This document shows, piece after piece, positions 1,246-22,759 of a DNA stretch of 32,000 nucleotides. The DNA is taken from positions 1,050,001 to 1,082,000 of the forward strand of contig NC_016012.1 of the NCBI RefSeq assembly GCF_000283555.1. The letters run 5' to 3'. Position 1 is the stretch's first letter. The number at the start of each line of letters is the position of its first letter. The position numbers and the translations under genes are program-made. This stretch comes from Candidatus Arthromitus sp. SFB-rat-Yit. GTDB lineage: Bacteria > Bacillota > Clostridia > Clostridiales > Clostridiaceae. The notes under the pieces were generated by a model. That model was not told the origin of the DNA and did no database searches. It saw only the letters and a program-made list of their open reading frames with translations.

Positions 1246-3441
1246 TTAAATAAATTCAATCGGTGCATTATTCAATCCAAGTTTCTTAATTCCATTATTA
1301 TCAAAAGCAACCACAATTTTTGGACTTTCGGTATCCTCCTCAACTCTAACGATCACACCCAAACCAAAATTTTTGTGTTTGATCTTCATTCCCGCTCTAA
1401 CATCATCTTTTGAAACATTATTATATTTTTTGGGAGAATCACTAACAAGTGGATTATAATTAAATTTCCCAAAACTTTTTGATGGCATAGACTCACAAAT
1501 ATTAATTTCTTCACCCCTAAAATCAATATTTAATAATAAATTACTTGGAACTTCTCCCAAAAATTTAGATTTAGTTCTAAACCCTGTTTCACCATAAACC
1601 ATTCTCATGTTTGCATATGTAAAATAAAGTATATCTTTCGCTCTTGTTATTCCAACATAGCAAAGCCTTCTTGATTCTTCCATTTCATCAATATCATCAA
1701 AGCACTTATTACTTGGAAAAATTCCATTTTCCATACCAACCATAAACACAACAGGAAATTCCAATCCTTTCGAAGAATGAATTGTCATAAGTGTAATTGA
1801 AGAAGATTTTTCATCATATTTATCAATTTCACTAACAAGCATAATATTTTCAAGAAAATCTTCAATATTTCCATCAATATTCAATTGTTCAAAATTAACA
1901 GCCGCATTTATAAACTCCTGAATATTTTCAAAACGTGTATCTATATCAGAATCCTTAGATTTTTTTAAAGCATCAATATATCCAATTTTATCAATCATTA
2001 AACGAATAAACTCTGAAGGTTTTAAATCAATATATTTTCTAATCTCCTCAATAGATTTAGCAAAATTCTTTATGATATCTTGGGTTCTAAGACTAATTGT
2101 TGCAATTTCAGCACATGCAACCATCGCATCAAACAAACCAATTCCATTTCTTTCAGCATATTCCGATAATTTATACAAAGTTGTATCTCCAATGCCTCGT
2201 TTAGGTTCGTTTATAATTCTTCTAAGACTTATCTCATCACTCGGATTAACTATTGTTTTTATATACGCAATTATATCCTTAATTTCCTTTCTTTCATAGA
2301 AACGCATAACACCTACAAGCTTATACGGTATTTGATTTTTAACGCATATTTCCTCAAACATTCTTGATTGAGAATTTGTTCTATATAAAATTCCAAAATC
2401 TCTATATTCATATCCCTTTGATTTAATAAGTCTAAAAATTTCGTTAATAACAAACAACGCTTCTTCTTCTGCGTTACTTGCTCTAAATAATTTAATTTTA
2501 TCTCCTTCATTATTTATTGCTTTTAAAATTTTCTTCTTTCTTCTTACATTATTTAAAATCACTTTGTTTGCGGCATCTAATATAGTAGACTTAGACCTAT
2601 AATTCTTCTCAAGTTTAATAACCTTTGTATTTTTATAATCCTTTTCAAAATCCAAGATATTATTTATATCTGCACCCCTCCACTGATAAATACATTGATC
2701 ATCATCACCAACAACACAAATATTTTTGTTCATATCAGCGAGCATCTTAACCAAGTAATACTGAGAATAATTTGTATCCTGATACTCATCGACCATAATA
2801 TACTTAAATTTTGATTGATAGAAACTCAAAATTTCTGGATGTTTTTCAAATAATTCAATCGTTTTAAAAATTAAATTATCAAAATCAAGAGAATTGTTCT
2901 CAAATAATTTCTTCTCATAAACCTCATAAATTTGTGCAACAAGCCTTTCTCTATAATCAAAAGCATTTGAAATAGCTTCATCTGGTTTTATAAACTGATT
3001 TTTATAGTTAGAAATCTTCCTTAAAACTTCTGATGGATCAATATTATCTTGATTAATTTTAAGAATATCCATGCACTGTTTTACAAGAGCCTTTTGATCT
3101 GGAAAATCATAAATAGTAAATGAACTTGTATAACCAAGATTACCAATTTCCCTCCTCAAAATACGAACACATAAAGAGTGAAAAGTCGATATCCACATAT
3201 TTTCAGAAATTTCTCCAATTAGAGAACGAACCCTGTCTTTCATTTCTTTTGCTGCCTTATTTGTAAAAGTGATAGCAAGTATTTGATAGCTATTAATACC
3301 TAAATTTTTTATCATATGAGCGATTCTGTATGTAATCGTTCTAGTCTTTCCAGACCCCGCACCAGCTAAAATAAGTAATGGTCCATCAACACTTGTAACC
3401 GCACTATATTGTTCCTCATTTAATAACTCCCTTAATTCCAT
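1246..3441 (-). CDS. pcrA: ATP-dependent DNA helicase PcrA (UvrD/Rep superfamily 1)
   Basis: 731 aa. Walker A AGAGSGKTRT, motif II VDEYQDTN, motifs TIHSSKGLEF and YVGITRA. Followed by ligA. Confidence 0.95.
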   Translation of the reverse strand: MELRELLNEEQYSAVTSVDGPLLILAGAGSGKTRTITYRIAHMIKNLGINSYQILAITFTNKAAKEMKDRVRSLIGEISENMWISTFHSLCVRILRREIGNLGYTSSFTIYDFPDQKALVKQCMDILKINQDNIDPSEVLRKISNYKNQFIKPDEAISNAFDYRERLVAQIYEVYEKKLFENNSLDFDNLIFKTIELFEKHPEILSFYQSKFKYIMVDEYQDTNYSQYYLVKMLADMNKNICVVGDDDQCIYQWRGADINNILDFEKDYKNTKVIKLEKNYRSKSTILDAANKVILNNVRRKKKILKAINNEGDKIKLFRASNAEEEALFVINEIFRLIKSKGYEYRDFGILYRTNSQSRMFEEICVKNQIPYKLVGVMRFYERKEIKDIIAYIKTIVNPSDEISLRRIINEPKRGIGDTTLYKLSEYAERNGIGLFDAMVACAEIATISLRTQDIIKNFAKSIEEIRKYIDLKPSEFIRLMIDKIGYIDALKKSKDSDIDTRFENIQEFINAAVNFEQLNIDGNIEDFLENIMLVSEIDKYDEKSSSITLMTIHSSKGLEFPVVFMVGMENGIFPSNKCFDDIDEMEESRRLCYVGITRAKDILYFTYANMRMVYGETGFRTKSKFLGEVPSNLLLNIDFRGEEINICESMPSKSFGKFNYNPLVSDSPKKYNNVSKDDVRAGMKIKHKNFGLGVIVRVEEDTESPKIVVAFDNNGIKKLGLNNAPIEFI

Positions 3442-4976: not shown

Positions 4977-7007
4977 TCAGGTCACATTAAATTCATATAT
5001 ATCATAATCTTCATAGTTACAAGTCTTATATTCACTCTTTGTAAGAACAAGTAACTTATATTGTCCTTCTTTAAATGGGATAAAGCTATAAGTATTCTTT
5101 CTACTATAAGCTTGTACTCTTCTCCACTCACCTTGCTCCATCAAATAAAATTCATATCCAATATCTCGTCCACCTTTTGTATTTACAACAAAGAATATTG
5201 AATTATTGACGAACAAATACTCATCTTTAACTTCACAAATAATTTTCGTATTCATAATTGGAAGCGAATCTTGAACATATATACGAGCTTCCTTCAAAGA
5301 ATCATATTCTAATTTTGAATTTTTATTTTTAGCCATAACGGAAAGTGTATACTTTCCCTTAACCGTTGGAACATAATCAAACGATGTGTCGTTAATAAAT
5401 TGAGTTTCAACTATAACCTGATCATCAATAGACAAAACATATTTAAATAACGTTTGTTTAGTGTTCTGTGCAATCAAGCTAAATATTATCGGTTCTCCTA
5501 CAACATAGCACTCTTGTTTTTTATAAAGAATATAATCTATTTTTGCCGGATAATAATCCCATACTTTAAAATGAAGTATTGTTGAAGCATCATACTCCTG
5601 CACCGAAAACATATCCTTAACTCTTATCTCAAGCTCATAGTATCCCTTCTCTTGAGGCATAAAAGTCAAAAAATTCTTATCACTATACTCTATATATCCA
5701 ACTTCTTTATTCTCTTTTGTAATTATAAAACTATATTGTAATTTTAATCCACCTTCAGCTTTAACAATAATTCCTATAGGCTTATTCTTAACGTGTTTGT
5801 TGTACGAATCTATTTGTACATCTAAAATTTTAACTACTTGAGAAATATAAGGCAATACGTCAAAATTCATTTCGCCATAAACATCGTAACCTTGTGGCGT
5901 ACTCTCATCTTTTACATAAACCTTAACATTATAATTCCCAGAAATTTTTGGTACCCATTGATAAAAATTTTCCCTTAGATAACCACTCTCTTCAATAAAA
6001 TGTTCATCATCACTGCTTGGACCATTTATTACATATTTGTACAATAAAGTTTTTCCACCTTCAACCTGTATATTAAAGTTTATTGGATGCCCTGTGTAAT
6101 GTGGAGAACTTAAATTTGCAGATAGTTCTATTATTTTTATCTCATTATACGGCTTAACATCGTATATAATAATAGCTCTATCATCATAATTATTTATAGA
6201 ATAAAGATCCTTAACAAGTACAAGCAACCTAAATTTACCATGTCTATTTTCAATAAACGAAACAATACTCTTGGTTGAATAATCTTGTATTACTTCTACC
6301 TTACCTTCCTCATCAACCACCAAGAATTTATACAAAACTGTTTTATTTTCTTCATTATTTATATCACATTGAAATATTAGTTCCTCACCTGAAATAAGTT
6401 CTTTACTTAAACTTTTCAAAGATAATATCTCAATCTTTCCAACATCATTAACGCTAAATTTTATTGTTGCAAAATCATCAAAATTATTTTCAGAATCTTG
6501 CTTTTTACACTGCACAAGTATTTCTTTTTCACCAATTTCATTTAAAGTTAAAATAAGCTTATCGTCATATGTATAATCTTTAAGTAATTCCCATCCATAT
6601 TGACCATTTATCCAAAATTTATAAAGACTTGGTGAATATGATGAGTCAACACTCAAAACCAATTGTTCCCCAACTGAATAACTATCTTTATCTAAATGCA
6701 CTGACTTTATTATTTTTTCATCTTCAATGTCTTTGCCGATTATATAATTTTCCCTAGCTATATAATCAAACGCCTTCTTGCTCGAAATTTTTTTAGCCTG
6801 AACCATAACTATATAATTACCATATTCCGAAGGAACCCATACAACTTCTTTTTGAGTAGAGAAATCTTGTATAGTATACCATACTCCATTAATTCCTACG
6901 CAAAATCTATATACCAATTCCTCATCTAATCCCGAAACCTTTATATTTATTGGCACATCTTTATCCTGTGGAGAGGCTAAGCTAAAATCCATCAATAATT
7001 CATTCAC
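4977..7007 (-). CDS. Protein built from seven tandem ~90-aa triple-tyrosine (Y_Y_Y-like, Ig-fold) repeats; no signal peptide
   Basis: 676 aa. Each repeat carries an aromatic motif (LVYRF, SLYKFW, VLYKFL, LLYKYV, LQYSFI, LFKYVL, GYEFYL). About 35 aa later each has G-x-Y/F-x-hydrophobic-x-V-x-x-K (GNYIVMVQAKK, GEKEILVQCKK, GKFRLLVLVKD, GNYNVKVYVKD, GYYELEIRVKD, GKYTLSVMAKN, GQYKLLVLTKS). SD AAGGGGGA lies upstream of the ATG at 7007. Confidence 0.75.
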   Translation of the reverse strand: MNELLMDFSLASPQDKDVPINIKVSGLDEELVYRFCVGINGVWYTIQDFSTQKEVVWVPSEYGNYIVMVQAKKISSKKAFDYIARENYIIGKDIEDEKIIKSVHLDKDSYSVGEQLVLSVDSSYSPSLYKFWINGQYGWELLKDYTYDDKLILTLNEIGEKEILVQCKKQDSENNFDDFATIKFSVNDVGKIEILSLKSLSKELISGEELIFQCDINNEENKTVLYKFLVVDEEGKVEVIQDYSTKSIVSFIENRHGKFRLLVLVKDLYSINNYDDRAIIIYDVKPYNEIKIIELSANLSSPHYTGHPINFNIQVEGGKTLLYKYVINGPSSDDEHFIEESGYLRENFYQWVPKISGNYNVKVYVKDESTPQGYDVYGEMNFDVLPYISQVVKILDVQIDSYNKHVKNKPIGIIVKAEGGLKLQYSFIITKENKEVGYIEYSDKNFLTFMPQEKGYYELEIRVKDMFSVQEYDASTILHFKVWDYYPAKIDYILYKKQECYVVGEPIIFSLIAQNTKQTLFKYVLSIDDQVIVETQFINDTSFDYVPTVKGKYTLSVMAKNKNSKLEYDSLKEARIYVQDSLPIMNTKIICEVKDEYLFVNNSIFFVVNTKGGRDIGYEFYLMEQGEWRRVQAYSRKNTYSFIPFKEGQYKLLVLTKSEYKTCNYEDYDIYEFNVT

Positions 7008-7153: not shown

Positions 7154-7179
7154 ATACTAAATTTACCAAAATTTAGTAT
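7154..7179 (-). terminator. Hairpin 5 nt after the pglX stop codon (possible terminator)
   Basis: Perfect 11-bp inverted repeat ATACTAAATTT-nnnn-AAATTTAGTAT. The all-A/T stem is followed on the minus strand by GTTTATAGTT, a weak U-tract. Confidence 0.35.
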
Positions 7180-7184
7180 TATAA

Positions 7185-10100
7185 TTATTTAAATATATTT
7201 TGATTGTAAAAATCACCTTCCATTTGCAATTTTTCATAAATATTTGAAATTCCATCTTCCAAATCTATATTTATAGATTTTTCACTTACAGCTTTAATCA
7301 TTTGATTATATTTTTTACATTCTTCAAGTTTTAAAATTAAAGTTTCTTTATACTTTTTAGATTTTAAAAATTTTTCATTTTCGTATATGTTCTCAAATTT
7401 TAATATTTCATCTTCATATTTGTGTTCTATAACATCTAAATAATTTATCTTAAACTTCAAAAAATCTTCTTTTGAAAATCTATGAATATATGTTAATGCA
7501 TTAATTCCATTATTCTTCCCTGAACAAAATTCAAAATAAATTGGGCATTTATTATAAATTTTTGAGTGAGTCTTAAAAAAATCTTTCAAAAAATAATTAA
7601 CAATGTTCTCCCTATAACTTCCACTTTTAAAACCAAGAGAAGTGCAAATAAATTTTAAATTCTCATCAACACATTCTCTATCGAAAATAACTTCTAAAAA
7701 TTTCAAAAGCAAATTATAAATATCATTTCCAAAATATTCTTCTGTTGAAATTATAACAAGATTATCCTTTTCTGGGTAAAATCTTCTATAACTTCTCTTA
7801 AAAATATCATCTACATTATCTATAACTTTTTCATAGTCTAGTGAATACCTTCCAAACACACATCCAACAAAATAACTCAAAAAGCTTTCAACAAATTTTT
7901 TCTCATCAATCTTTCTTATAGAAACATTTCCATCTTCAACTTCATGCGAAACTTCATCTGTAAATCCATAAATTTCTTTAAAAATAATGTTCATCTTCTC
8001 TTCATTTCTTTTGACTTCTTCAAACATAATTTCAATTTCTCTATAAAAATTCTCATATGAATCCCTAAGTCTTCCACTTATCCTAAACTCAATTGAAGGA
8101 TGAGTTTTAAAATCCCAAGACGTTTCATAAAAATCCCATTCCTTTTTGCAAAGATAAATATTTCTATTAGCAAGCCTTGTTATATCATCCAAATACAAAT
8201 CATTAATAATAATTGGAAGATCTCCAATATTTCCAATCTGAAAATTAACCGTAGGAGCTATAGAAGACAATAAATAAAAGCAAACATTTGAACACAAAAA
8301 AGCTAAAATATATTTTTCATACTTTTGATCTGGAAATAATGAAGATCCTGAAACATCAAAAATAAATCCATAGTCTTTATACCTAACACCAAAATTTTTA
8401 AAGCCAAATAGTGACCATGTAATTCCTTTTTTAAAATAATACTTTCTATTTTTAATCACAAACTCCGGATCACTTATTCGAGGATATTTTGACCTCACAA
8501 AATTTATGAGATTCTCACCAGCATTCTCATATTTAATTATGTACTCATTGTTGCCATACCACTTCCTATAATCTCCCCCTTTGTTGTATGGAAACCATTT
8601 TTTATCTATTTCCTTTACATCGTCATGATTTTTTGAACAAAATTCTATATCACTCTTGTTCAGTTCATACCAATACCTAACAAAAGTTTTATTGTCAGTT
8701 GTTGCCATTCCTTGTTTTGGTTCAAAATATTCCTTAAGAGGTTTATGCTCTCTAAAAATTTCTCTCGCCCTCTCGCTTATCCAATAATTTATTGGAGATC
8801 CTGGGACATCATCAAATGATCTTAATTTTATTTTTGAATTCCTATTTTGAGATATTGGAAAATTAAACGGCTCTCCACTCGCATTAATATCCTCATATTT
8901 AATATAATTGTAAACCCCTTCATAATCTTTAATTGCCTTCTTTTTAAATATTGTCGCACTCGTTCCAAAAGCAATTGACATTACATTATTATCCATGTGA
9001 AGAAGTGAAACTATTGTATTTTTATCTGAAATAGATTTTCTGAGTTTCTCAAACTTATAAAGGAACATCCATGATTGCATAGTAAGCATTACGTTGAATC
9101 CATTATCGTGCGTTAACTCAAACCCTCTTTCAATAAACACAGAAAATAAATCCATCTTACTATTTGGATAATTCTCTTTTAAATAAAGTGTGAGCTTCTC
9201 CCCCATTCCCCGACTACTCATATACGGAGGATTTGTCACAACAATATGATACTTACTGCTTAAGAGCTTTGAGAGATTAATTAAATTTTTCATACACTCA
9301 AGCTCTTCTTCATTTAAATATGGATACACAAGATCTCCTATTAAATCAAAATCAAGTTTTTTCACAGATAACAGCGATCCATATTCTTTTGAATCCTTAA
9401 AAGAATCTAATATGTATTTAACATCACAAAATTTATCATTATCGAGAATACTCGCCTTCGCAAGAACACTCTCATATATTTCATTGCTCTCAATAATTGG
9501 ATAAAGATTAAATTTAATATTTCTACTCTTAAAAAATTTTCTAGACTTACTTCTACCTTTCATCATAAGAGCAAAATATGCAAGCTCATAAGCTCTATCA
9601 TCAACATCAATACCGAACAAATTATTTTCAAATATTAAATAAGGAATTTCACTTTCCATATACCCATATTCCTTATAGATTTCAAAAAGGAGATCAAATG
9701 CGTAAACCAAAATATGACCGCTACCCATACAAGGATCAATTATTTTTATATCTTTAGGTAAAATATTTTTAAAATCCGCATTCCCAATCTCAGCATCAAC
9801 AAAATATTTAAGTTCTACTGGAAATTCACTCTCGCCACTATTTTCTATGTAAAACCTACCAAGAGAATTTTCAACCATATACTTAACAATCCACTTAGGT
9901 GTGAAAATTTGAGTTACTGAAGGTATGTTTTCTTTAGATATTTTTATATTTTGTTTAAGCCTTTTAAAAATTTCATCCTTCTTCTCTGTTATGTAATACT
10001 GATAAAGCCAACCAATAATCTCAACATTATCAAAAAAATACTTTTCATCGATATCATCTATAATTCTCCTAAGGAAGCTATTTTCATTAGAAAGATTAAC

Positions 10101-10652
10101 TGGAAAAATCAAATTTCTATAATCGTTTGTATTTTTAAAAATTCCCGGTAAAATTTCATTTAAAGCATTGCACTGCTCAATAAATAAATATTTGAATAAT
10201 TCATCAGCCTTATTTTCACTTTTAAGTCTTAAAATATATTCCCTATCAACATAAAAATCCAAATCATCAAAATATGTAACTATATCAGGATCAATCTTAC
10301 TTCTATTTAAAGATGACAACACACGAATTCCAGATGGAATATAATTATTAATTTCCATAAATCTTATAGCAATTACACGATTAAACCAAGTATAGGCTCC
10401 CTCCTCAACAATAGAATCAAACCCTCTTTCATTGATTTTCCTAACTAAGATTTCTCTTTTCTCTATATCTTGTCCAAAAATTCTATATACCTTATCTTCC
10501 CCTATTTTAAAATCTTCATATTCATTACCATACCTTACACCTTCTTGTATGTAATCTTTGGTTATTCCAATTAAAAGTAACCTATCACTTACCTCCTTTA
10601 TTAAACTTTTTCTGGCCCAAATAGCAAAATTTTTAACTACATTTTTATTCAT
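7185..10652 (-). CDS. pglX: BREX-type N6-adenine DNA methyltransferase PglX
   Basis: 1155 aa. PglX-like N-terminus MNKNVVKNFAIWARKSLIKEV. SAM-binding motif I IIDPCMGSGHIL (nt 9714-9737) precedes catalytic motif IV VVTNPPYM (NPPY at nt 9222-9233). Long C-terminal region as in PglX. The start overlaps the brxC stop by 8 nt (ATGAATAA), with SD AGAGGAA. Confidence 0.88.
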   Translation of the reverse strand: MNKNVVKNFAIWARKSLIKEVSDRLLLIGITKDYIQEGVRYGNEYEDFKIGEDKVYRIFGQDIEKREILVRKINERGFDSIVEEGAYTWFNRVIAIRFMEINNYIPSGIRVLSSLNRSKIDPDIVTYFDDLDFYVDREYILRLKSENKADELFKYLFIEQCNALNEILPGIFKNTNDYRNLIFPVNLSNENSFLRRIIDDIDEKYFFDNVEIIGWLYQYYITEKKDEIFKRLKQNIKISKENIPSVTQIFTPKWIVKYMVENSLGRFYIENSGESEFPVELKYFVDAEIGNADFKNILPKDIKIIDPCMGSGHILVYAFDLLFEIYKEYGYMESEIPYLIFENNLFGIDVDDRAYELAYFALMMKGRSKSRKFFKSRNIKFNLYPIIESNEIYESVLAKASILDNDKFCDVKYILDSFKDSKEYGSLLSVKKLDFDLIGDLVYPYLNEEELECMKNLINLSKLLSSKYHIVVTNPPYMSSRGMGEKLTLYLKENYPNSKMDLFSVFIERGFELTHDNGFNVMLTMQSWMFLYKFEKLRKSISDKNTIVSLLHMDNNVMSIAFGTSATIFKKKAIKDYEGVYNYIKYEDINASGEPFNFPISQNRNSKIKLRSFDDVPGSPINYWISERAREIFREHKPLKEYFEPKQGMATTDNKTFVRYWYELNKSDIEFCSKNHDDVKEIDKKWFPYNKGGDYRKWYGNNEYIIKYENAGENLINFVRSKYPRISDPEFVIKNRKYYFKKGITWSLFGFKNFGVRYKDYGFIFDVSGSSLFPDQKYEKYILAFLCSNVCFYLLSSIAPTVNFQIGNIGDLPIIINDLYLDDITRLANRNIYLCKKEWDFYETSWDFKTHPSIEFRISGRLRDSYENFYREIEIMFEEVKRNEEKMNIIFKEIYGFTDEVSHEVEDGNVSIRKIDEKKFVESFLSYFVGCVFGRYSLDYEKVIDNVDDIFKRSYRRFYPEKDNLVIISTEEYFGNDIYNLLLKFLEVIFDRECVDENLKFICTSLGFKSGSYRENIVNYFLKDFFKTHSKIYNKCPIYFEFCSGKNNGINALTYIHRFSKEDFLKFKINYLDVIEHKYEDEILKFENIYENEKFLKSKKYKETLILKLEECKKYNQMIKAVSEKSINIDLEDGISNIYEKLQMEGDFYNQNIFK

Positions 10653-13600
10653 TAATGGTTCCTCTATCTTTTAAAAATATACTTTCCATCTTAACCCCAT
10701 AGCTATCAAATAAACTAGTACATTTTTTAAGCTTCTCTTTTAAATCAATCAACAAACTTTCATCTATAAATTTTGAGATTTCACTATCTAAAAATTTACC
10801 AATAGATTTTATTGTTTGTTGCAAATATAAATTATGTACTTGATAAAAGTCATCAATATATCCTCTCAATTCTGCAATACTGCTATATAAAGATTCACTA
10901 TTTAAAATATTTTTAATTTTGAATGCACACTCACACACATCAATTTTATCAACAATAAAATTCTTATCCTTATCAAAAATTTCTACAACTGCAACACCTT
11001 TTTTAAATATTTCAAGTTGAACACTTGTATAAAAATTATAAACAAGTTCAAATTTATCAAACTTTCGTAATATATAATCCTCATCTATATCATGTAAATT
11101 CCCATCTTTAACCTGAAATGTAAAACTTTCAAATTTATTTATAAATTGAGTATTTAAATACACACCATTATTTTTTGAAATATTTTTAACCAACTTAATA
11201 CGGTGCAAAATCTCATTAAAATCATCACATGAACTTATCTTAAGTTCATCAAAAGTATTAACAAAATATTTTTTATCAAATATTTTTTCAAATAATTTTT
11301 TGTAAATATTAAATTTACATTTCTCTCCATAATCCAAAAAATTAATAATAATTTTATTTAAGCTCGATCTAGATAATATAAATTCTTCAAGTTTATTAAG
11401 ACTGTATTCACATGATAACTTTCCTTCTTTTACAAGATACAGAATGCCAAACAAAACATCATTTTTATTAAACCCATACGGTATTTGCTTAAAATGAAAA
11501 ATAACATCAGAAATGTTCATTTCTCTAGAATCTATCAAAAATTTCTCAAGTTCTTGTATAAATAGAGAATTACAATTTAATATTTCACTTAATATCTTAT
11601 TATTATTTAACGCTTCAACTATATCTCTCGGAGAATCCAAAATTTTATCAACATAAAACAATTTATTGAACCTACATGATATAAGTTCATTTAATGCTAA
11701 TCTAAAAATTTCATTTATGCTCGAGGAATTTTTACATAACATTTCTCCATTTACAAATATTTTGGAATTTTTAATCCCATCAAGTATCAAAACTTTAACC
11801 CTCTCTAAACGATTAAAATGTTCAATTTCCTTTTGATTAATAATTTCAAAAAATGATTCTTTATAAAAATCTTTATTATATTTCAAAAACTTATCTAACT
11901 TTAAATATAAGTTTATCTCTTCAATTAAATTTTTATCGTCATCTAAATAAACAATAACATTGTTTTCTATAATTGATGTTACTCTTATCAAATCCAAATT
12001 AAAATTCTCATCATAATTAGTCATAAGAATTTTAATTCCAATTAGATTTGACTTTGAAACTTTGTACTCCATATTATCAAACAATTGATTAATTCCAAAA
12101 TAATTCTTACCTCGATACTTAAATTTAGTAATTCCTATAATCTCATCAAATATTTCCCTACACAATAAATCATTTATATCGTGCGAATTAACATTGCTTC
12201 TAATAATTTTATAATTTATATCTCTCTCATTCTTCGATAAAAAATAAAATTTATCCCCATCTCTATTAACAAACCCCTCATTGATAAGTTTAGATAAAGA
12301 GTTTTTAACTTTATTTAACATACTCTGCTCTAAACTAATATCAGAAATAATTAATGATAATATAGTATCAATGTTCCCAACTAAATTCGGAACATATTTA
12401 ATAAGAAATAATACCTTTAATATATTGATATCAAATTCATCAAGCATCGTATAATCTTTCAAAATCAAAAATATGTACTGGTGATTATAATCAATGAAAT
12501 CACTAATCGCATCATAAAACATATAAAATGGAACAACACAATTAATATCATTATCTTTAAAATTAATTAATACTTTCTGAAAACAATTTATAAGACTTCT
12601 TTCACCTTTTGATATATCTCTGCTTATAACATTGTTTTTCATCATATAAAATATAATTTCTCTTAAAAGCTCAAGTTGATAAGGCAGAAAAGGATAATAC
12701 CTCATAAAACTATCTTTGTTTATACTATTTTGATTATTGGTAATACTCAATTCCGATCCAAACTTTGTCTTTATAAAGAATTTTTTCTCATCGTAAAATT
12801 CTTCTATCAAACTTTTAAACTCATCTTTCTTAACTAAAAGTCTATTACACAAAACTTCTCCTATATTAACACTCGATAAATAGAATTTATTTTTAAACCT
12901 ACTCTGTATTTTTGAAAAATCATATTTCTTATTACTTACCATGTCTAAAATATCAACATGACTTGTAACAATTACAAACGCCCTTCCTAAACATTTAATA
13001 GAAAGTTCTTCAACAATCGTTTGGAGATTTAAAATTTTATTTACATCATCAGCTATAAATTGTGAAACCTCATCTACCATAAATACAATGCTATGATCTT
13101 CACCATTTTTATTTAAGTAATCATTAACCTTCCGAGCAAAATTGTCAATATTCATCTTATAATTCTTCTCAATATTTAAAAAATACTCTTGTGCTACATC
13201 TAAACCAAAATTCTTACAAACACTTAACGCTTTAACTAACTGTTCATTATAAAAGTAAAACTTATCTCTTCCTTCCTCCCAACTTACATTTGAAATCTTT
13301 AAAAACTCTTCTTTAAAATCATCAAAAATATTTTCGTCAGATAATTGTTCCTCAAGTTCACATATAAATCCATAGCGAGAAGAAAACCCTCTCATAGCAT
13401 TAAACTCATTAACAAAAACATCAAGCATTGACTCCTCTTTAATATTTTTTGAATCTATATTGAAAATAATAACATCCTTAGAAATACCCGCTACAAATTC
13501 AAGTTCATTTTTAATTAATCCCAAGCACTCATTATTCTTAATTAATAAATCCAAATTAATTTTCTTAAGTATATAATACAAAATCTTAAGAAAATGTGAC

Positions 13601-13824
13601 TTACCACTACCAAAGAATCCTGAAATCCAAAATCCAATTGCATCATTTTTCATAACAAAAGAATTTTTATAAGTATCAATAAACTTTTCTATGTACCCAA
13701 AAATCTCCTGAGTAATAACATACTCATCTATCTCAACTATCTCTTTCCCTATATTTTCGGAAACTTTAACTACACTTTGTATATTCCTACCTACATCTTT
13801 AACAAAAATATCTTTGATAAACAT
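10645..13824 (-). CDS. brxC: BREX P-loop ATPase BrxC/PglY
   Basis: About 1059 aa from the ATG at 13824; the track's 13836 start is a TTG extension. N-terminus MFIKDIFVKDVGRNIQSVVKV. Walker A GFFGSGKSHFLK (nt 13594-13620). Walker B-like VFMVDEVSQF (DE at 13069-13074). Size and position immediately upstream of pglX match BrxC. Confidence 0.82.
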   Translation of the reverse strand: MFIKDIFVKDVGRNIQSVVKVSENIGKEIVEIDEYVITQEIFGYIEKFIDTYKNSFVMKNDAIGFWISGFFGSGKSHFLKILYYILKKINLDLLIKNNECLGLIKNELEFVAGISKDVIIFNIDSKNIKEESMLDVFVNEFNAMRGFSSRYGFICELEEQLSDENIFDDFKEEFLKISNVSWEEGRDKFYFYNEQLVKALSVCKNFGLDVAQEYFLNIEKNYKMNIDNFARKVNDYLNKNGEDHSIVFMVDEVSQFIADDVNKILNLQTIVEELSIKCLGRAFVIVTSHVDILDMVSNKKYDFSKIQSRFKNKFYLSSVNIGEVLCNRLLVKKDEFKSLIEEFYDEKKFFIKTKFGSELSITNNQNSINKDSFMRYYPFLPYQLELLREIIFYMMKNNVISRDISKGERSLINCFQKVLINFKDNDINCVVPFYMFYDAISDFIDYNHQYIFLILKDYTMLDEFDINILKVLFLIKYVPNLVGNIDTILSLIISDISLEQSMLNKVKNSLSKLINEGFVNRDGDKFYFLSKNERDINYKIIRSNVNSHDINDLLCREIFDEIIGITKFKYRGKNYFGINQLFDNMEYKVSKSNLIGIKILMTNYDENFNLDLIRVTSIIENNVIVYLDDDKNLIEEINLYLKLDKFLKYNKDFYKESFFEIINQKEIEHFNRLERVKVLILDGIKNSKIFVNGEMLCKNSSSINEIFRLALNELISCRFNKLFYVDKILDSPRDIVEALNNNKILSEILNCNSLFIQELEKFLIDSREMNISDVIFHFKQIPYGFNKNDVLFGILYLVKEGKLSCEYSLNKLEEFILSRSSLNKIIINFLDYGEKCKFNIYKKLFEKIFDKKYFVNTFDELKISSCDDFNEILHRIKLVKNISKNNGVYLNTQFINKFESFTFQVKDGNLHDIDEDYILRKFDKFELVYNFYTSVQLEIFKKGVAVVEIFDKDKNFIVDKIDVCECAFKIKNILNSESLYSSIAELRGYIDDFYQVHNLYLQQTIKSIGKFLDSEISKFIDESLLIDLKEKLKKCTSLFDSYGVKMESIFLKDRGTINE

Positions 13825-13834
13825 ATTACACCCC

Positions 13835-13881
13835 AAAAAATAGCAACCTATAATTCAAAGAAATAAATTATAAGTTGCTAT
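13835..13881 (-). terminator. Rho-independent terminator of pgi
   Basis: Minus-strand RNA: AUAGCAACUUAUAAUU-10 nt loop-AAUUAUAGGUUGCUAU. The 16-bp stem has one mismatch on the plus strand that becomes a G-U pair on the minus strand. A U-run follows, ending about 10 nt before the brxC ATG. Confidence 0.7.
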
Positions 13882-13895
13882 AAAATCTTTTTTAA
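13867..13895 (-). promoter_or_regulatory. Candidate promoter for brxC-pglX nested in the pgi terminator
   Basis: Minus strand: TTAAAA (13895-13890), 17 nt, TATAAT (13872-13867). The -10 hexamer sits in the 5' arm of the terminator stem. Speculative. Confidence 0.3.
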
Positions 13896-15248
13896 TTACA
13901 ATCTTTTTTCAAGTTCACTTTTCAAATCCTCAAATCCTTTCTTACCAAGAAGTGCAAACATATTTTTCTTATAATTCTCAACACCTTCCTGATTAAATGG
14001 ATTTACTGCAGACAAATAACCGCTTATTCCACAAGCCTTCTCAAAGAAATAGATCATATATCCTACATTGTAAGCATCTATCTTAGGTATAGTAACAACC
14101 ATATTAGGAACTCCACCATCCAAATGAGCAAGTAATGTTCCCGCAAAAGCTTTTTTATTAACAAAATCAACTGTCTTACCACTTAAATAATTAAGACCGT
14201 CAATATCCCCATCCATATTTTTAATCGTAAGATCTTTCAATGGATTTTCTACATTTATAACAGTTTCCATAATATTTCTCATTCCATCTTGGATATACTG
14301 ACCAAGTGAATGTAAATCAGTAGATAGGTTCACAGAAGATGGATAAATTCCTTTTTTATCCTTACCTTCACTTTCTCCATATAATTGTTTCCACCACTCA
14401 GAAAAGAAAGTAAGAGATGGTTCGTATGATGCCAAAATTTCCGTAGTATATCCTTTTCTATAAAGAATATTTCTTGTAGCAGCATATCTATAAGAATAAT
14501 TTTTCTCTAAATCATCACATTCAAAATCTTTTACAGCATCTCTAGCTCCTTGCATAAGGGCGTCAATGTCAACACCAGAAACAGCTATAGGTAAAAGACC
14601 AACTGGAGTTAATACAGAAAATCTCCCTCCAACATCATCAGGTATTACAAAAGTTTCATAACCTTCGCTATCAGCAAGACCTTTTAAAGCTCCTCTAGCT
14701 TTATCAGTTGTCGCAATTATTCTCTCTTTTGCTCCATCTTTTCCATACTTATCTTCTAAGAAACTCTTAAAAAATCTAAATGCAAGAGCTGGTTCTGTAG
14801 TTGTACCAGATTTAGATATAACATTTACATAAACACTTTTATCTTTAATAAGTTCTAATAAATCAATTAAATAGGTGGAACTTATGCTATTACCTGCAAA
14901 AAATATTTGAGGTGCTTTTCTCTTATCAGAACTTAAATAGTTAAAGAAAGTAGTATTTAAACATTCAATGCAAGCTTTCGCTCCTAAGTATGAACCTCCT
15001 ATACCTATAACTATCAAAACATCCGCATTATCCCTTATTTTTTGTGCCGTAACCTTAATTCTGTTATATTCTTCTTTATCATAATCATTTGGCAAATTTA
15101 CCCATCCCAAAAAATCATTGCCAGCTCCACTTCTATTTTTAATCAATTCATGGGCAAGCTTAACTTGGGGTACTATTAAATCCAATTCATCACTATTTAT
15201 ATAACTACCTAATTTTGAATCATCGAATTTCAATTTATCCATAGACAT
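13896..15248 (-). CDS. pgi: Glucose-6-phosphate isomerase
   Basis: 450 aa. PGI signatures [12 protein letters not shown] and [11 protein letters not shown], plus [14 protein letters not shown]. Strong SD AAGGAGG. Confidence 0.95.
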
Positions 15249-16238: not shown

Positions 16239-17420
16239 TCACTTATTCTTCTTTAAATTCGTACCTCTAAACTTAATAACCTGTTTATTAATACTAATAT
16301 TTATAAATATCAATATAACTATCGTAATTAACATTATTAATGAAGCAAATATATCTTTATATAAAATAAAACTACTCTCTGTAATTACCACAAATGGAGC
16401 GAAAAATGGAATGCATACTAATATATTTTTAAAATAATTATTAGGAAACTGTAAATTAAGCATCGACAAAAAATACCCAATAGAAATCAAAAACACAATT
16501 GGAATTATTCCTAACGATAACTCTTCAATCTTATCAATCACACTTCCTATAAAAACAAATAATAAACCATATATCATAAATCCCAATACAAAATACGATA
16601 TATATTTTAACACAAATAATCCATCAAATACTATAATTTCTTTAATTAATGGGAAATACTTATTACTCATCATTCCTGTTATTAAAAATAAAATAATTAT
16701 AAAGTATATCAGTTGTATCAGAGCAGCCAACAAATAACCAAATAATTTTCCTAATATAATTGTTGAAAATTTAACTTTAGTTATAAATATATCCATTATT
16801 TTTGAAGTTCTCTCTATGTTTACATTCATAGATATAAACTGTCCATATAATATAAAAATCATGTAAATAAATATTGTTAATAAAAAAGGATACGTGTAGT
16901 TCTTTATAATCCCTATGACTTTATTTTTAAATAGACTAAGAGATTCAACATTATAATTTGGATAACTTATATTCAAATCAGAATTTTGGTTTAAAATGTA
17001 TCTATCTAATATAAATTTAATTTCAGGATAGTTCTCTTTTGTGAAAATATTAATCTCTGATTTGGAAACTACATCTATGTATCCGTCAATCCCACCATTA
17101 TATAGCTTCTCTTTAAGTTCATCTTCTTTAACTCCTTTATCAACCAATTTAACATAATAGTTATTGTCCAAACTCTTCTCAATACTTCTTATATATAAAT
17201 TCAATTCCAAATCATCTTTAAAAATATAATTTTTAGGATCAGATATATAAATCAAATATTCACTTTTATCTTTTGATATAAAATTAAATTTTATAATTAG
17301 ATCTGGCAAAATTGATACAATTATAATTAAAAGAGATATTACCAAGGTAGATATCTTGAAAAAATTTCTACCAATAATATCTCTAAAATTGTAAGCAGCT
17401 ATTATGAAAAATTTGTTCAC
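16239..17420 (-). CDS. ABC-2 type exporter permease (NatB/YhaP-like)
   Basis: 393 aa. One N-terminal TM, a large extracytoplasmic loop, then about five C-terminal TM helices. GTG start directly abutting the ATPase stop codon, with SD GGTGA. Confidence 0.8.
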   Translation of the reverse strand: MNKFFIIAAYNFRDIIGRNFFKISTLVISLLIIIVSILPDLIIKFNFISKDKSEYLIYISDPKNYIFKDDLELNLYIRSIEKSLDNNYYVKLVDKGVKEDELKEKLYNGGIDGYIDVVSKSEINIFTKENYPEIKFILDRYILNQNSDLNISYPNYNVESLSLFKNKVIGIIKNYTYPFLLTIFIYMIFILYGQFISMNVNIERTSKIMDIFITKVKFSTIILGKLFGYLLAALIQLIYFIIILFLITGMMSNKYFPLIKEIIVFDGLFVLKYISYFVLGFMIYGLLFVFIGSVIDKIEELSLGIIPIVFLISIGYFLSMLNLQFPNNYFKNILVCIPFFAPFVVITESSFILYKDIFASLIMLITIVILIFINISINKQVIKFRGTNLKKNK

Positions 17421-21856: not shown

Positions 21857-22759
21857 TTATTTTAAAAATACACTGCTTCCACCTGTCGATAATTTCTTCA
21901 CATCTAAATTTAAATTATTAATCCTAACTTCTATACAATCATCAATAAACCTAACACTACTAACATCCAAATCTAAATCTAAATTTCCAAACGCCTTCAA
22001 CAAATCTTTAACAAAAATTTTTATAGGAATATGTTCTATATTAACTCCTGGAAAAACACAGTTTATCATCTTAACTTGTATATATAATAAATTTTCCCTT
22101 AACTCCTTTATATTTAAAGAAATATCTCCAACCTCAAATGAACCAATTATTATCCCTTTTAAATAAATAGCTTGACTCACATCTATTCCAGAGATAGAAA
22201 AGTTGCCACTCTTTACAAAATCTCTAACAAAAGACATTATATCATCACCTGAAAGTCTTAATATGGTCTGTGTAAGTTTCAAAAATATCCCTCCATTTTT
22301 GTTTGAATTTTTATTTCTTGGATTAATCTTTACATTTATATCTTTTGAAATAATATGAATAAAACCATTTTTAGTAACTACATTTTTCAAATCAAAACTA
22401 AAATTTGAATGTTTAATTAAATTATTTAAATCTATTTCAAAAGTATGTTTATTTAATTTGTTTTCACTTATAATATTCATTGGAAAAAGTTTTATAAATA
22501 TATCAATTATGGACTTTGGGATACATATCCCATTAAAACTTATCTTTGTTATCTTAATATGAATTTTATTATCATGAACCTTAAGTATCTTAAAATGTAA
22601 ATTTAAATTTCTAAATATTTTATAACTAATATTTTTTATTTGTACTTCATCAACAATCTTGATCTCTTTAAAGTGAATCTTCCTACTCGCTAAAAATTTA
22701 ATTAAAATGTGTGTTAAATCTCTTTCACTGAGCAAAATAGAAATATTAGTTAACTTCAT
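21857..22759 (-). CDS. Hypothetical protein with internal two-fold duplication
   Basis: 300 aa. The halves begin MKLTNISILLSERDLTHILIKFL and LKLTQTILRLSGDDIMSFVRDFV, and both continue as alternating beta-strand-like hydrophobic patterns, joined by a linker (PRNKNSNKNGG). Possibly LmeA/DUF2993-like, from memory only. Confidence 0.65.
   Translation of the reverse strand: MKLTNISILLSERDLTHILIKFLASRKIHFKEIKIVDEVQIKNISYKIFRNLNLHFKILKVHDNKIHIKITKISFNGICIPKSIIDIFIKLFPMNIISENKLNKHTFEIDLNNLIKHSNFSFDLKNVVTKNGFIHIISKDINVKINPRNKNSNKNGGIFLKLTQTILRLSGDDIMSFVRDFVKSGNFSISGIDVSQAIYLKGIIIGSFEVGDISLNIKELRENLLYIQVKMINCVFPGVNIEHIPIKIFVKDLLKAFGNLDLDLDVSSVRFIDDCIEVRINNLNLDVKKLSTGGSSVFLK

What the first reader, a model, noticed from the sequence alone, without database searches (positions are those of the whole stretch)
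7185..13836. Orphan brxC-pglX pair: a two-gene BREX-like module with no pglZ, brxL, brxA or brxB in 32 kb
Seen in sequence: a ~1059-aa P-loop ATPase with a BrxC-type N-terminus (Walker A GFFGSGKSHFLK at nt 13594-13620, DE of Walker B at 13069-13074). It is followed by a 1155-aa PglX-type methyltransferase (motif I DPCMGSGH at 9714-9737, NPPY at 9222-9233). The genes overlap by 8 nt (ATGAATAA) with an SD inside brxC, so they look translationally coupled. The pair is bracketed by the pgi terminator (13835-13881) and its own hairpin (7154-7179). The flanking genes are pgi on one side and a repeat protein plus transglycosylase on the other. No ORF on either strand of the window resembles an alkaline-phosphatase-fold PglZ, a Lon-like BrxL, or the ~200-aa BrxA/BrxB. 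Established knowledge: as I recall the original BREX classification (Goldfarb et al. 2015), every subtype contains pglZ together with brxC/pglY, and type 1 is brxA-brxB-brxC-pglX-pglZ-brxL. As I recall, genetic dissection of type 1 systems found PglZ and BrxB/BrxC necessary for PglX-dependent methylation. Inference: three explanations are possible. It may be a minimal autonomous ATPase+methyltransferase defence or epigenetic module derived from BREX, a split system whose other genes lie elsewhere, or a deletion remnant. Two intact ORFs of >1000 codons each, in DNA this rich in stop-codon-forming triplets, with preserved coupling, argue against simple decay. Hand counts on single 60-nt lines suggest the pair is even more A+T-rich than its neighbours. 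G+C was 9 (11281-11340), 12 (12301-12360) and 13 (8281-8340) of 60, versus 23 in pgi (14581-14640), 17 (16501-16560) and 15 (5401-5460). These are spot samples, not statistics, but they fit horizontal acquisition.
Basis: partly seen in the sequence, partly recalled or inferred. Interest (0 to 1): 0.85.

Follow-up and report, generated by a model that had tools for sequence, protein, structure and literature searches.

The report
Conserved two-gene BREX remnant in SFB
Segmented filamentous bacteria, the gut symbionts that train host immunity, all keep just two genes of a six-gene anti-phage BREX system (an ATPase and a DNA methyltransferase) at one fixed chromosomal site and conserve them like housekeeping genes, so the pair probably still marks DNA even though the other genes that every tested BREX system needs are missing from every locus examined.

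Summary
The window comes from Candidatus Arthromitus sp. SFB-rat-Yit. ORF 10645-13824(-) is a BrxC ATPase and ORF 7185-10652(-) is a full-length BREX-1 PglX methyltransferase. They overlap by 8 nt. No BrxA, BrxB, PglZ or BrxL is found in the 32 kb.

New here: the pgi-brxC-pglX-Y_Y_Y arrangement is present in all 10 SFB lineages examined, including rat, mouse and a turkey-type lineage.
- The pair has co-diverged with its flanking genes. dS is about 0.7, as in the flanks, and PglX distances track housekeeping distances (r=0.95).
- Both genes are under purifying selection: PglX omega 0.07, BrxC 0.19.
- GC3 matches the neighbours, so recent horizontal transfer is not supported.
- The PglX target-recognition domain is the most conserved part in SFB but the most variable part in ordinary PglX.
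- SFB BrxC keeps Walker A, Walker B and the arginine finger. It lacks the roughly 80-aa C-terminal dimerisation subdomain that all sampled canonical BrxC proteins retain.
- The nearest non-SFB relatives sit in canonical brxA-brxB-brxC-pglX-pglZ loci.

Best reading: an anciently domesticated, methylation-only BrxC-loads-PglX module.

Main gap: I could not scan whole SFB genomes for PglZ or BrxB located elsewhere.

Verdict: a new variant of a known kind, of moderately high interest.

The parts
13840..13881 (-). pgi intrinsic terminator hairpin. It is followed directly by a T-run (13835-13840), the brxC Shine-Dalgarno sequence GGGGTG (13829-13834) and the ATG.
   Evidence: The scan called it as terminator-like. 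RNAfold gives -20.5 kcal/mol. The hairpin, T6, GAGGTG and ATG are conserved in 8 SFB lineages; all 16 predicted pairs are kept in most sequences and 2 show compensatory changes. A TATAAT inside the left arm is promoter-like, but this is only an inference.
10645..13824 (-). brxC: a 1059-aa ORC/Cdc6-clade AAA+ ATPase of the BrxC family. It is a short form that lacks the C-terminal alpha/beta dimerisation subdomain.
   Evidence: NCBIfam NF033441 scores 677 bits, matching profile positions 2-1069 of 1173. PADLOC scores 727 bits, matching positions 1-1071 of 1190. Pfam finds BrxC_4th and the wHTH domain. It aligns to Acinetobacter BrxC 9ZDX with E = 3.5e-115. In a multiple alignment it ends at about position 1108 of a 1185-aa canonical BrxC. 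The AF2 model (pLDDT 83) is all-helical after aa 829. The canonical P0017 model has a linker and then a strand-helix-helix-strand subdomain at 1143-1188.
13585..13620 (-). BrxC Walker A motif, GFFGSGKSHFLK (aa 69-80).
   Evidence: Confirmed by translation. These columns are invariant in the 49-sequence alignment.
13069..13074 (-). BrxC Walker B motif, D251-E252.
   Evidence: It aligns with the Acinetobacter E269(Q) position in 9ZDX.
12898..12900 (-). BrxC arginine finger R309, in the sequence IQSRFKN.
   Evidence: It aligns with Acinetobacter R330, which is chain position 332 in 9ZDX. It is invariant in alignment A1. The role of R330 is taken from PMC13326643.
10645..10652 (-). The 8-nt overlap ATGAATAA between the brxC stop and the pglX start, with AGAGGA 7 nt upstream.
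   Evidence: The same 8-nt overlap occurs in mouse SFB and in L020. Other lineages have gaps of only 4-20 nt.
7185..10652 (-). pglX: a 1155-aa gamma-class N6-adenine DNA methyltransferase of BREX type 1, full length.
   Evidence: NCBIfam NF033452 scores 1150 bits, matching profile positions 1-1208 of 1210. PADLOC PglX scores 1228 bits. It aligns with Salmonella PglX 8C45 over residues 1-1141 against 1-1206. Motif I is at 9714-9737 and NPPY at 9222-9233.
8235..8714 (-). PglX target-recognition domain (aa 647-806, equivalent to Salmonella residues 684-838).
   Evidence: Mapped through the 8C45 alignment and the domain limits in PMC11341690. Identity between SFB lineages is 85-96%, with omega 0.04-0.07. 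The same columns are the least conserved in 26 canonical PglX proteins.
7154..7179 (-). A/T-only hairpin after the pglX stop codon; a possible weak terminator.
   Evidence: RNAfold gives -11.2 kcal/mol. The consensus terminator scan did not call it.

Best explanation
The pair is the central brxC-pglX portion of a Firmicute type 1 BREX system. It was fixed between pgi and a Y_Y_Y-repeat gene in the common ancestor of segmented filamentous bacteria and has been inherited vertically since. The proposed mechanism is inferred, not shown. BrxC is a still-competent AAA+ ATPase with its DNA-binding alpha+beta and wHTH domains. It loads or activates PglX on DNA in an ATP-dependent way. PglX then methylates the N6 of adenine on one strand of a short asymmetric motif, and that motif is the same in all SFB. 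The restriction arm (BrxA, BrxB, PglZ, BrxL and the BrxC C-terminal dimerisation subdomain) has been lost. The module would therefore act as a methylation-only, housekeeping-like epigenetic marker and not as an arms-race defence system. Expression would be low-level, coming from read-through of the pgi terminator or from a promoter embedded in it, with pglX translationally coupled to brxC.
For: **Shown here**
1. Identity of both proteins.
2. The same pgi-brxC-pglX-Y_Y_Y synteny in 10 of 10 SFB lineages, including the complete mouse genomes AP012209 and AP012202 and a turkey-type lineage.
3. Vertical co-divergence:
   - rat-mouse dS is 0.67 (brxC) and 0.71 (pglX), against 0.62 (pgi) and 0.78 (Y_Y_Y);
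   - PglX distances correlate with pgi+Y_Y_Y distances at r=0.95, and BrxC distances at r=0.87;
   - GC3 equals that of the neighbours.
4. Purifying selection: rat-mouse omega is 0.073 for PglX, against 0.078 for pgi, and 0.19 for BrxC.
5. The target-recognition domain is the most constrained part of PglX in SFB (85-96% identity, omega 0.04-0.07). It is the most variable part in canonical PglX.
6. Catalytic motifs are intact: Walker A, Walker B and the arginine finger in BrxC, motif I and NPPY in PglX.
7. All SFB BrxC proteins are 1046-1064 aa and lack the terminal linker plus alpha/beta subdomain. Sixty-nine canonical BrxC ORFs are 1174-1285 aa.
8. The nearest relatives lie in canonical loci. 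Among 80 sampled canonical loci, BrxA and BrxB precede BrxC in 68 of 68 with enough upstream sequence. PglZ follows PglX in 41 of 43 with enough downstream sequence.

**From the literature**
- C-terminal BrxC mutations in Salmonella StySA abolish restriction but not methylation (PMC9009780).
- A BrxB(R82E) mutant that breaks the BrxB-BrxC contact keeps 85% methylation but loses restriction (PMC13326643).
- In the BREX-related MANTIS system, the BrxC-homologous AAA+ protein loads the methyltransferase onto DNA (bioRxiv 10.64898/2026.09.23.753747).
Against: - In every type 1 BREX system dissected so far, deleting brxB or pglZ abolishes methylation as well as restriction (PMC13326643 introduction). 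A BrxC+PglX pair that methylates alone has no experimental precedent.
- No methylome, expression or phenotype data for SFB were found.
- I could not search whole SFB genomes for PglZ, BrxB, BrxA or BrxL, so a split system is not excluded.
- The BrxC tail evolves fast (omega 0.43-0.67). This could mean partial relaxation, not a new function.
- The MANTIS methyltransferase belongs to a different class (alpha) from PglX (gamma), so the loading analogy is indirect.
Confidence: 0.5

Rival explanations
1. Minimal autonomous defence. BrxC and PglX together, or with an unrecognised non-BREX partner, both mark self DNA and exclude unmethylated phage or plasmid DNA, for example by ATP-dependent binding at unmodified sites.
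For: SFB genomes carry prophages and CRISPR arrays, so phage pressure exists (PMC3158464). Both proteins are under purifying selection with intact ATPase and methyltransferase motifs. BrxC keeps its DNA-binding alpha+beta and wHTH domains.
Against: The target-recognition domain is frozen across all lineages, the opposite of the diversification seen in defence PglX. No phase-variation repeats are present. BrxC lacks the C-terminal domain genetically linked to restriction in Salmonella. All tested BREX systems need PglZ and BrxB, and usually BrxL, for restriction. No conserved candidate effector is adjacent: the neighbours are pgi and a Y_Y_Y-repeat protein behind a hairpin.
Confidence: 0.2
2. 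Split BREX. brxA/brxB and pglZ/brxL, or functional analogues, are encoded elsewhere in the 1.5-Mb SFB chromosome, and the system works as an ordinary type 1 BREX.
For: Only about 2% of the genome (32 kb, plus about 10 kb on each side of the pair in relatives) was inspected. Methylation in all studied systems needs BrxB and PglZ.
Against: Canonical loci are contiguous: 68 of 68 have BrxA and BrxB immediately upstream, and 41 of 43 have PglZ downstream. A split here would need two separate relocations. The spacer upstream of brxC is about 70 nt and is filled by the pgi terminator in all lineages. BrxC has lost a domain that all sampled canonical BrxC proteins retain. A 2026 survey of BREX neighbourhoods has no entry for Arthromitus in the supplementary text that is held, which is weak evidence.
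Confidence: 0.12
3. A function that does not use methylation. PglX and BrxC would be kept as a sequence-specific DNA-binding and remodelling pair, for example in chromosome organisation or gene regulation during the SFB life cycle, with catalysis dispensable.
For: The very strong constraint on the DNA-recognition domain fits any function that depends on binding one fixed motif.
Against: The SAM-binding motif I and the catalytic NPPY are retained, and the methyltransferase domain has omega 0.06-0.12.
Confidence: 0.1
4. Non-functional deletion remnant drifting towards loss.
For: Four of the six BREX genes and one BrxC domain are gone. The BrxC tail evolves fast.
Against: Both ORFs of more than 1000 codons are intact in 10 of 10 lineages, although synonymous divergence reaches saturation (dS at least 1-2). 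Omega is 0.05-0.15 for PglX and 0.19-0.32 for BrxC. In 27%-GC DNA, open frames of this length would not survive neutrally.
Confidence: 0.03

Closest known systems
Type 1 BREX (brxA-brxB-brxC-pglX-pglZ-brxL), e.g. the Acinetobacter, E. coli HS and Salmonella StySA systems
   Same: BrxC and PglX are clear members of the same protein families (above the NCBIfam cut-offs; alignments to 9ZDX and 8C45). The gene order brxC then pglX and the tight coupling are as in canonical loci. The nearest relatives (BrxC 32% identity, PglX 45%) sit in canonical loci.
   Different: BrxA, BrxB, PglZ and BrxL are absent from the locus in all SFB lineages. BrxC lacks the C-terminal dimerisation subdomain. The target-recognition domain is frozen, not diversifying. 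The pair lies in the core genome at a fixed site between housekeeping genes, not in a defence island.
BREX-related (BR) systems / MANTIS (Gao_RL): a DUF499 AAA+ ATPase, a methyltransferase and a helicase-nuclease
   Same: An ORC/Cdc6-clade AAA+ ATPase homologous to BrxC is paired with an adenine methyltransferase. In MANTIS the ATPase loads the methyltransferase onto DNA and ATP hydrolysis allows turnover. This is the best mechanistic model for a pair of ATPase plus methyltransferase.
   Different: The SFB ATPase is a DUF6079-type BrxC, not DUF499. The methyltransferase is a gamma-class PglX, not an alpha-class MtsC. There is no MtsB (DUF3780) and no helicase-nuclease effector.
Type IIG/IIL restriction-modification enzymes (MmeI, Eco57I family)
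   Same: The methyltransferase core and target-recognition domain are homologous (Pfam Eco57I and MmeI_Mtase; PADLOC IIG model 1032 bits).
   Different: There is no N-terminal nuclease domain: the N-terminus aligns with the PglX helical bundle. The PglX models score higher. The gene is coupled to a BrxC ATPase, which type IIG enzymes lack.
Orphan 'housekeeping' DNA methyltransferases (Dam, CcrM)
   Same: Conserved across a whole lineage, vertically inherited, with fixed specificity, no cognate restriction partner, and evolutionary rates like those of core genes.
   Different: These are unrelated small enzymes that work alone. The SFB enzyme is a 1155-aa BREX PglX that presumably needs an AAA+ partner. 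A regulatory role in SFB is only inferred.

Membership tests
BrxC (BREX P-loop/AAA+ protein, NF033441 / DUF6079) | Score above the curated family cut-off, with an N-terminal ORC/Cdc6-type AAA+ domain carrying Walker A, Walker B and the arginine finger | tested here: met
   677 bits against a cut-off of 400. G69-K80, D251-E252 and R309 are invariant and align to 9ZDX.
BrxC (BREX P-loop/AAA+ protein, NF033441 / DUF6079) | Complete domain set including the C-terminal dimerisation (alpha/beta) subdomain | tested here: not met
   The profile match stops at position 1069 of 1173. In the multiple alignment the SFB proteins lack the last ~77 canonical residues. The AF2 model has no strands after aa 829, whereas the canonical model has a strand-helix-helix-strand subdomain at 1143-1188.
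PglX (BREX-1 adenine methyltransferase, NF033452) | Full-length match above the cut-off; gamma-class motifs I (GxG) and IV (NPPY); target-recognition and C-terminal domains; no nuclease domain | tested here: met
   1150 bits against a cut-off of 500, matching profile positions 1-1208 of 1210. End-to-end alignment to 8C45. Motifs verified.
Type 1 BREX system | pglZ (alkaline-phosphatase-fold PglZ) in the locus | tested here: not met
   No PF08665 or PADLOC PglZ hit in the window ORFs scanned. tblastn found nothing better than E about 1. None within about 10 kb of the pair in 9 other SFB lineages. For comparison, 41 of 43 canonical loci have it.
Type 1 BREX system | pglZ, brxB, brxA or brxL anywhere in the genome | not testable with these tools
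The SFB papers and supplements searched do not mention these genes.
Type 1 BREX system | brxA and brxB immediately upstream of brxC | tested here: not met
   In all SFB lineages, pgi and its terminator lie about 70 nt upstream of brxC. For comparison, 68 of 68 canonical loci have BrxA and BrxB there.
Type 1 BREX system | brxL (Lon-like AAA+ protein) downstream | tested here: not met
   No hit in the window or in the SFB loci.
Type 1 BREX system | Asymmetric 6-bp N6mA methylation of host DNA, and phage exclusion | not testable with these tools
   This needs a methylome and phage assays. No published data were found.
Type IIG/IIL restriction-modification (MmeI-like) | Nuclease domain fused N-terminally to the methyltransferase and target-recognition domains | tested here: not met
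   Only the Eco57I and MmeI_Mtase domains are detected. The N-terminal 200 aa align to the PglX helical bundle of 8C45. The IIG model scores below the PglX model.
BREX-related (BR) / MANTIS | DUF499 ATPase plus a helicase-nuclease effector (and DUF3780 in type 2) | tested here: not met
   The ATPase matches BrxC models only. No helicase-nuclease is adjacent. The PcrA gene 3.7 kb away is the housekeeping UvrD/PcrA helicase, syntenic with ligA in the other lineages.
DISARM class 1 | DrmMI methyltransferase together with DrmD, DrmA, DrmB and DrmC | tested here: not met
   The DrmMI model hit (740 bits) is weaker than the PglX hit (1228 bits). No Drm partners are found in the window.

The most novel reading that the evidence does not exclude
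A BrxC AAA+ ATPase and a PglX methyltransferase are sufficient on their own, without BrxB and PglZ, for ATP-dependent site-specific DNA hemimethylation. Segmented filamentous bacteria have domesticated this minimal BREX core as a lineage-wide, fixed-motif epigenetic system. It could, for example, time gene expression through their filament, holdfast and spore life cycle, or mark self DNA. This would be the first 'housekeeping' descendant of BREX and a natural minimal system for working out how BrxC activates PglX.
Probability: 0.35. Interest if true: 0.8.

Novelty: new variant of a known kind. Interest (0 to 1): 0.62.

Why it matters
- **Mechanism.** The mechanism of BREX is still unresolved, and stable complexes containing PglX have not been obtained. 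A natural two-protein version kept by selection for the whole history of a bacterial lineage would be a minimal test bed. It could show how the BrxC ATPase switches on PglX, and whether PglZ and BrxB are truly indispensable for methylation.
- **Evolution.** It would be an example of a defence system turned into a core-genome function: fixed site, fixed specificity, and evolutionary rates like a housekeeping gene.
- **Practical use.** Segmented filamentous bacteria are the classic Th17-inducing gut symbionts, are barely culturable, and are only now becoming genetically tractable. Knowing their conserved methylation mark and whether it is tied to any restriction activity is relevant for DNA delivery. 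It may also matter for understanding regulation of their complex life cycle.

Tried and rejected
**Rejected readings**
- Recent horizontal acquisition. GC3, dS and synteny all say the pair is ancient and vertically inherited.
- Pseudogene remnants of neighbouring BREX genes. The spacers are only about 70 nt and 177 nt, and tblastn found nothing.
- Cryptic BREX parts among the unannotated window ORFs (213, 174, 155, 249, 117, 300 and 955 aa). None had a Pfam or PADLOC hit.
- Phase variation of pglX. No simple-sequence repeats were found.
- Type IIG enzyme or DISARM DrmMI. These models score lower, there is no nuclease domain, and no partners are present.

**Attempts that led nowhere**
- The genome-contig scan with BrxC returned only one locus, a chicken SFB MAG cut at the contig end.
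- Literature searches for BREX, restriction or methylation in SFB genome papers and their supplements found nothing.
- The original BREX classification paper (Goldfarb et al. 2015) is not in the held library.
- Attempts to extend the rat-genome context past the window ends gave only a 3.8-kb contig, or no record at all.
- Predicting the methylated motif from target-recognition-domain residues was considered but not attempted, because no table linking PglX residues to motifs was available.

Full report
**Source and observation.**
The BrxC ORF is 100% identical to 'BREX system P-loop protein BrxC [Candidatus Arthromitus sp. SFB-rat-Yit]', on a 1,515,556-bp contig. The window is therefore from the rat segmented filamentous bacterium (SFB), a host-attached Clostridium relative with a reduced genome of about 27% G+C.

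Every motif coordinate given was verified. The true brxC start is the ATG at 13824, which follows GGGGTG. The TTG at 13836 listed by the ORF finder is not the start, and all orthologues begin MFIKD/MFVKD.

**Identity of the two proteins.**
- BrxC scores 677 bits on NCBIfam BREX_BrxC (cut-off 400) and 727 bits on PADLOC BrxC. It contains the Pfam BrxC_4th and wHTH domains.
- BrxC aligns with the Acinetobacter BrxC structure 9ZDX (E = 3.5e-115). Walker A, Walker B (DE) and the arginine equivalent to R330 are conserved. R330 is the residue that completes the ATP site between BrxC protomers (PMC13326643).
- PglX scores 1150 bits on NCBIfam BREX-1 PglX (cut-off 500). It aligns end to end with Salmonella PglX 8C45.
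- The type IIG and DISARM DrmMI models score lower, and PglX has no nuclease domain.

**Surroundings.**
Pfam and PADLOC scans covered 20 of the 29 window ORFs of at least 80 aa, and PADLOC alone covered one more. They gave housekeeping or unrelated functions: PcrA, a pseudouridine synthase, an SLT transglycosylase, a seven-repeat Y_Y_Y protein, pgi, ABC transporters, DJ-1, dUTPase, an amidase, MatE, FtsX and a histidine kinase. Several SFB-specific ORFs had no hit. None matched PglZ, BrxA, BrxB or BrxL. tblastn with BrxA, BrxB, PglZ and a partial BrxL taken from canonical loci found nothing better than E about 1.

**The pair is a fixed feature of the whole SFB clade.**
- The BrxC homology search showed a tight clade of 14 clusters (50-100% identity, 1046-1064 aa). 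Below that there is a jump to 32% identity with ordinary BrxC proteins of about 1190 aa.
- PglX behaves the same way: 68-90% identity within the clade, then 45%.
- Every context I could retrieve has the same order pgi-brxC-pglX-Y_Y_Y-SLT. These contexts are:
  - two mouse-like contigs;
  - two NCBI MAGs;
  - three further metagenomic lineages;
  - the complete genomes SFB-mouse-Yit AP012209 and SFB-mouse-Japan AP012202;
  - the lineage carrying the SFB-turkey pgi;
  - a chicken SFB MAG.
- None has another BREX gene within about 10 kb of the pair.
- The roughly 70-nt spacer between pgi and brxC is conserved in all lineages. It consists of the terminator hairpin, a T6 run, GAGGTG and the ATG.

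**Evolutionary behaviour.**
- Rat against mouse: dS is 0.67 for brxC and 0.71 for pglX. The flanking genes give 0.62 (pgi) and 0.78 (Y_Y_Y).
- Rat against mouse: omega is 0.19 for brxC and 0.073 for pglX, against 0.078 for pgi.
- Across 21 lineage pairs, PglX protein distance tracks the pgi+Y_Y_Y distance (r = 0.95, slope 1.4). BrxC does too (r = 0.87, slope 2.4).
- GC3 is 0.19 for brxC and 0.21 for pglX, inside the 0.11-0.24 range of the other window genes. The lower total G+C of brxC comes from codon positions 1 and 2, that is from amino-acid composition.
- The pair is therefore ancient, vertically inherited and under purifying selection. Decay and recent horizontal transfer are both rejected.

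**Two structural and evolutionary peculiarities.**

First, the PglX target-recognition domain. In Salmonella it spans residues 684-838 (PMC11341690), which corresponds to SFB aa 647-806. It is the best conserved part of the SFB protein, with 85-96% identity and omega 0.04-0.07. The same columns are the least conserved in a sample of 26 canonical PglX proteins, with pairwise identity 0.36-0.45. Defence PglX proteins diversify or phase-vary their specificity. SFB PglX has kept one specificity and has no simple-sequence repeats.

Second, all SFB BrxC proteins end about 77 residues before canonical ones.
- Profile matches stop at position 1069 of 1173 and at 1071 of 1190.
- The multiple alignment shows the same end point, plus a 15-residue internal deletion.
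- The precomputed Pfam BrxC_7th and BrxC_ab domains are absent.
- The AF2 model of SFB BrxC (pLDDT 83) is purely helical after residue 829 and ends in a helix.
- The model of a canonical BrxC (pLDDT 78) continues through a disordered linker into a strand-helix-helix-strand subdomain at 1143-1188.
- That region is the 'C-terminal dimerization domain' of Acinetobacter BrxC (PMC13326643).
- In 69 complete canonical BrxC ORFs sampled from metagenomes, the shortest is 1174 aa.

**Origin.**
The closest non-SFB relatives of both proteins sit in standard brxA-brxB-brxC-pglX-pglZ(-brxL) loci. I sampled 80 canonical BrxC loci.
- BrxA and BrxB lie directly upstream in 68 of 68 loci with at least 1.3 kb of upstream sequence.
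- PglZ follows PglX in 41 of 43 loci with at least 3 kb of downstream sequence.

The SFB arrangement is thus a derived state. It is the middle of a type 1 locus with both ends removed, and a 2026 survey of BREX diversity does not describe it. That survey discarded unassigned hits, which it attributed largely to incomplete neighbourhoods, and its held supplements do not mention Arthromitus (PMC12839542).

**Mechanism (inferred).**
- Three published results show that the BrxC-PglX axis can be separated from restriction:
  - Salmonella BrxC C-terminal mutations lose restriction but keep methylation (PMC9009780).
  - BrxB(R82E), which breaks the BrxB-BrxC contact, keeps 85% methylation but loses restriction.
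  - In the BREX-related MANTIS system, the BrxC-like AAA+ protein loads the methyltransferase on DNA and ATP hydrolysis gives turnover.
- Combining these with the intact catalytic motifs, the lost restriction-linked BrxC domain and the frozen target-recognition domain, I propose a methylation-only module. BrxC would load or activate PglX to hemimethylate one fixed asymmetric motif.
- brxC starts 16 nt after the pgi terminator stem. Expression therefore probably depends on read-through, or on a promoter whose TATAAT lies in the left arm of the hairpin. This is inference only.

**Limits.**
- I could not scan the rest of any SFB genome for PglZ, BrxB, BrxA or BrxL. A split system remains possible (I put it at about 12%).
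- No methylome, expression or phenotype data exist in the literature I could search.
- A methylating BrxC+PglX pair without PglZ and BrxB has no experimental precedent. That absence is both the main argument against the model and the reason it would be interesting.

**Verdict.**
The feature is a new variant of a known kind: a clade-wide, domesticated two-gene derivative of type 1 BREX. Interest is moderately high (0.62). The deciding tests are a whole-genome HMM scan, a methylome and heterologous expression.

Noticed in passing
window 1607-1704 (-), inside pcrA: Rfam match RF03531 (n00280, 'Clostridioides difficile sRNA included into helicase gene') at 66.7 bits, just above the gathering score of 65.2. 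It lies within the PcrA coding sequence.
   Followed up: no
window 22860-25727 (-) and 21857-22759 (-): A 955-aa ORF and a 300-aa ORF have no Pfam or PADLOC hit. The large one (848-960 aa) is present in most SFB lineages but missing in L004 and L020, where MatE sits directly next to the 300-aa gene. It appears to be a variable, SFB-specific large protein.
   Followed up: partly
window 4977-7007 (-): A 676-aa protein made of seven Y_Y_Y repeats, starting at GTG. It is exactly 676 aa in all but one SFB lineage (677 aa in L020) and very strongly conserved (omega 0.04-0.11), more so than pgi in the rat-mouse comparison. Its function is unknown.
   Followed up: partly
window 13829-13895 (-): The pgi terminator hairpin contains a conserved TATAAT in its left arm, with a -35-like hexamer 17 nt upstream. 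A transcript started there would lack the left arm and so escape termination. This could be an overlapping terminator/promoter arrangement feeding brxC.
   Followed up: partly
L009 277-1880 and 20491-23168: In one SFB lineage a group II intron maturase gene lies next to a truncated dUTPase (55 aa), and pcrA is split into 227-aa and 475-aa pieces. The cause could be mobile-intron activity or an assembly artefact.
   Followed up: no
L004 19540-21319: One SFB MAG has an aldehyde dehydrogenase gene and a 2TM-domain gene inserted between SLT and the pseudouridine synthase gene. This is the only break in the otherwise rigid synteny around the pair.
   Followed up: no
L036 and L081 (metagenome loci): Two canonical brxA-brxB-brxC-pglX loci have more than 4 kb of sequence after pglX with no detectable PglZ. 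They may carry inserted cargo genes or be PglZ-less variants outside SFB.
   Followed up: no
L055 (metagenome locus): My locally built HMMs annotate a BrxA-BrxB-BrxC locus followed by BrxL, with no PglX or PglZ, in 9.6 kb of downstream sequence. This could be a divergent subtype or a rearranged locus.
   Followed up: no
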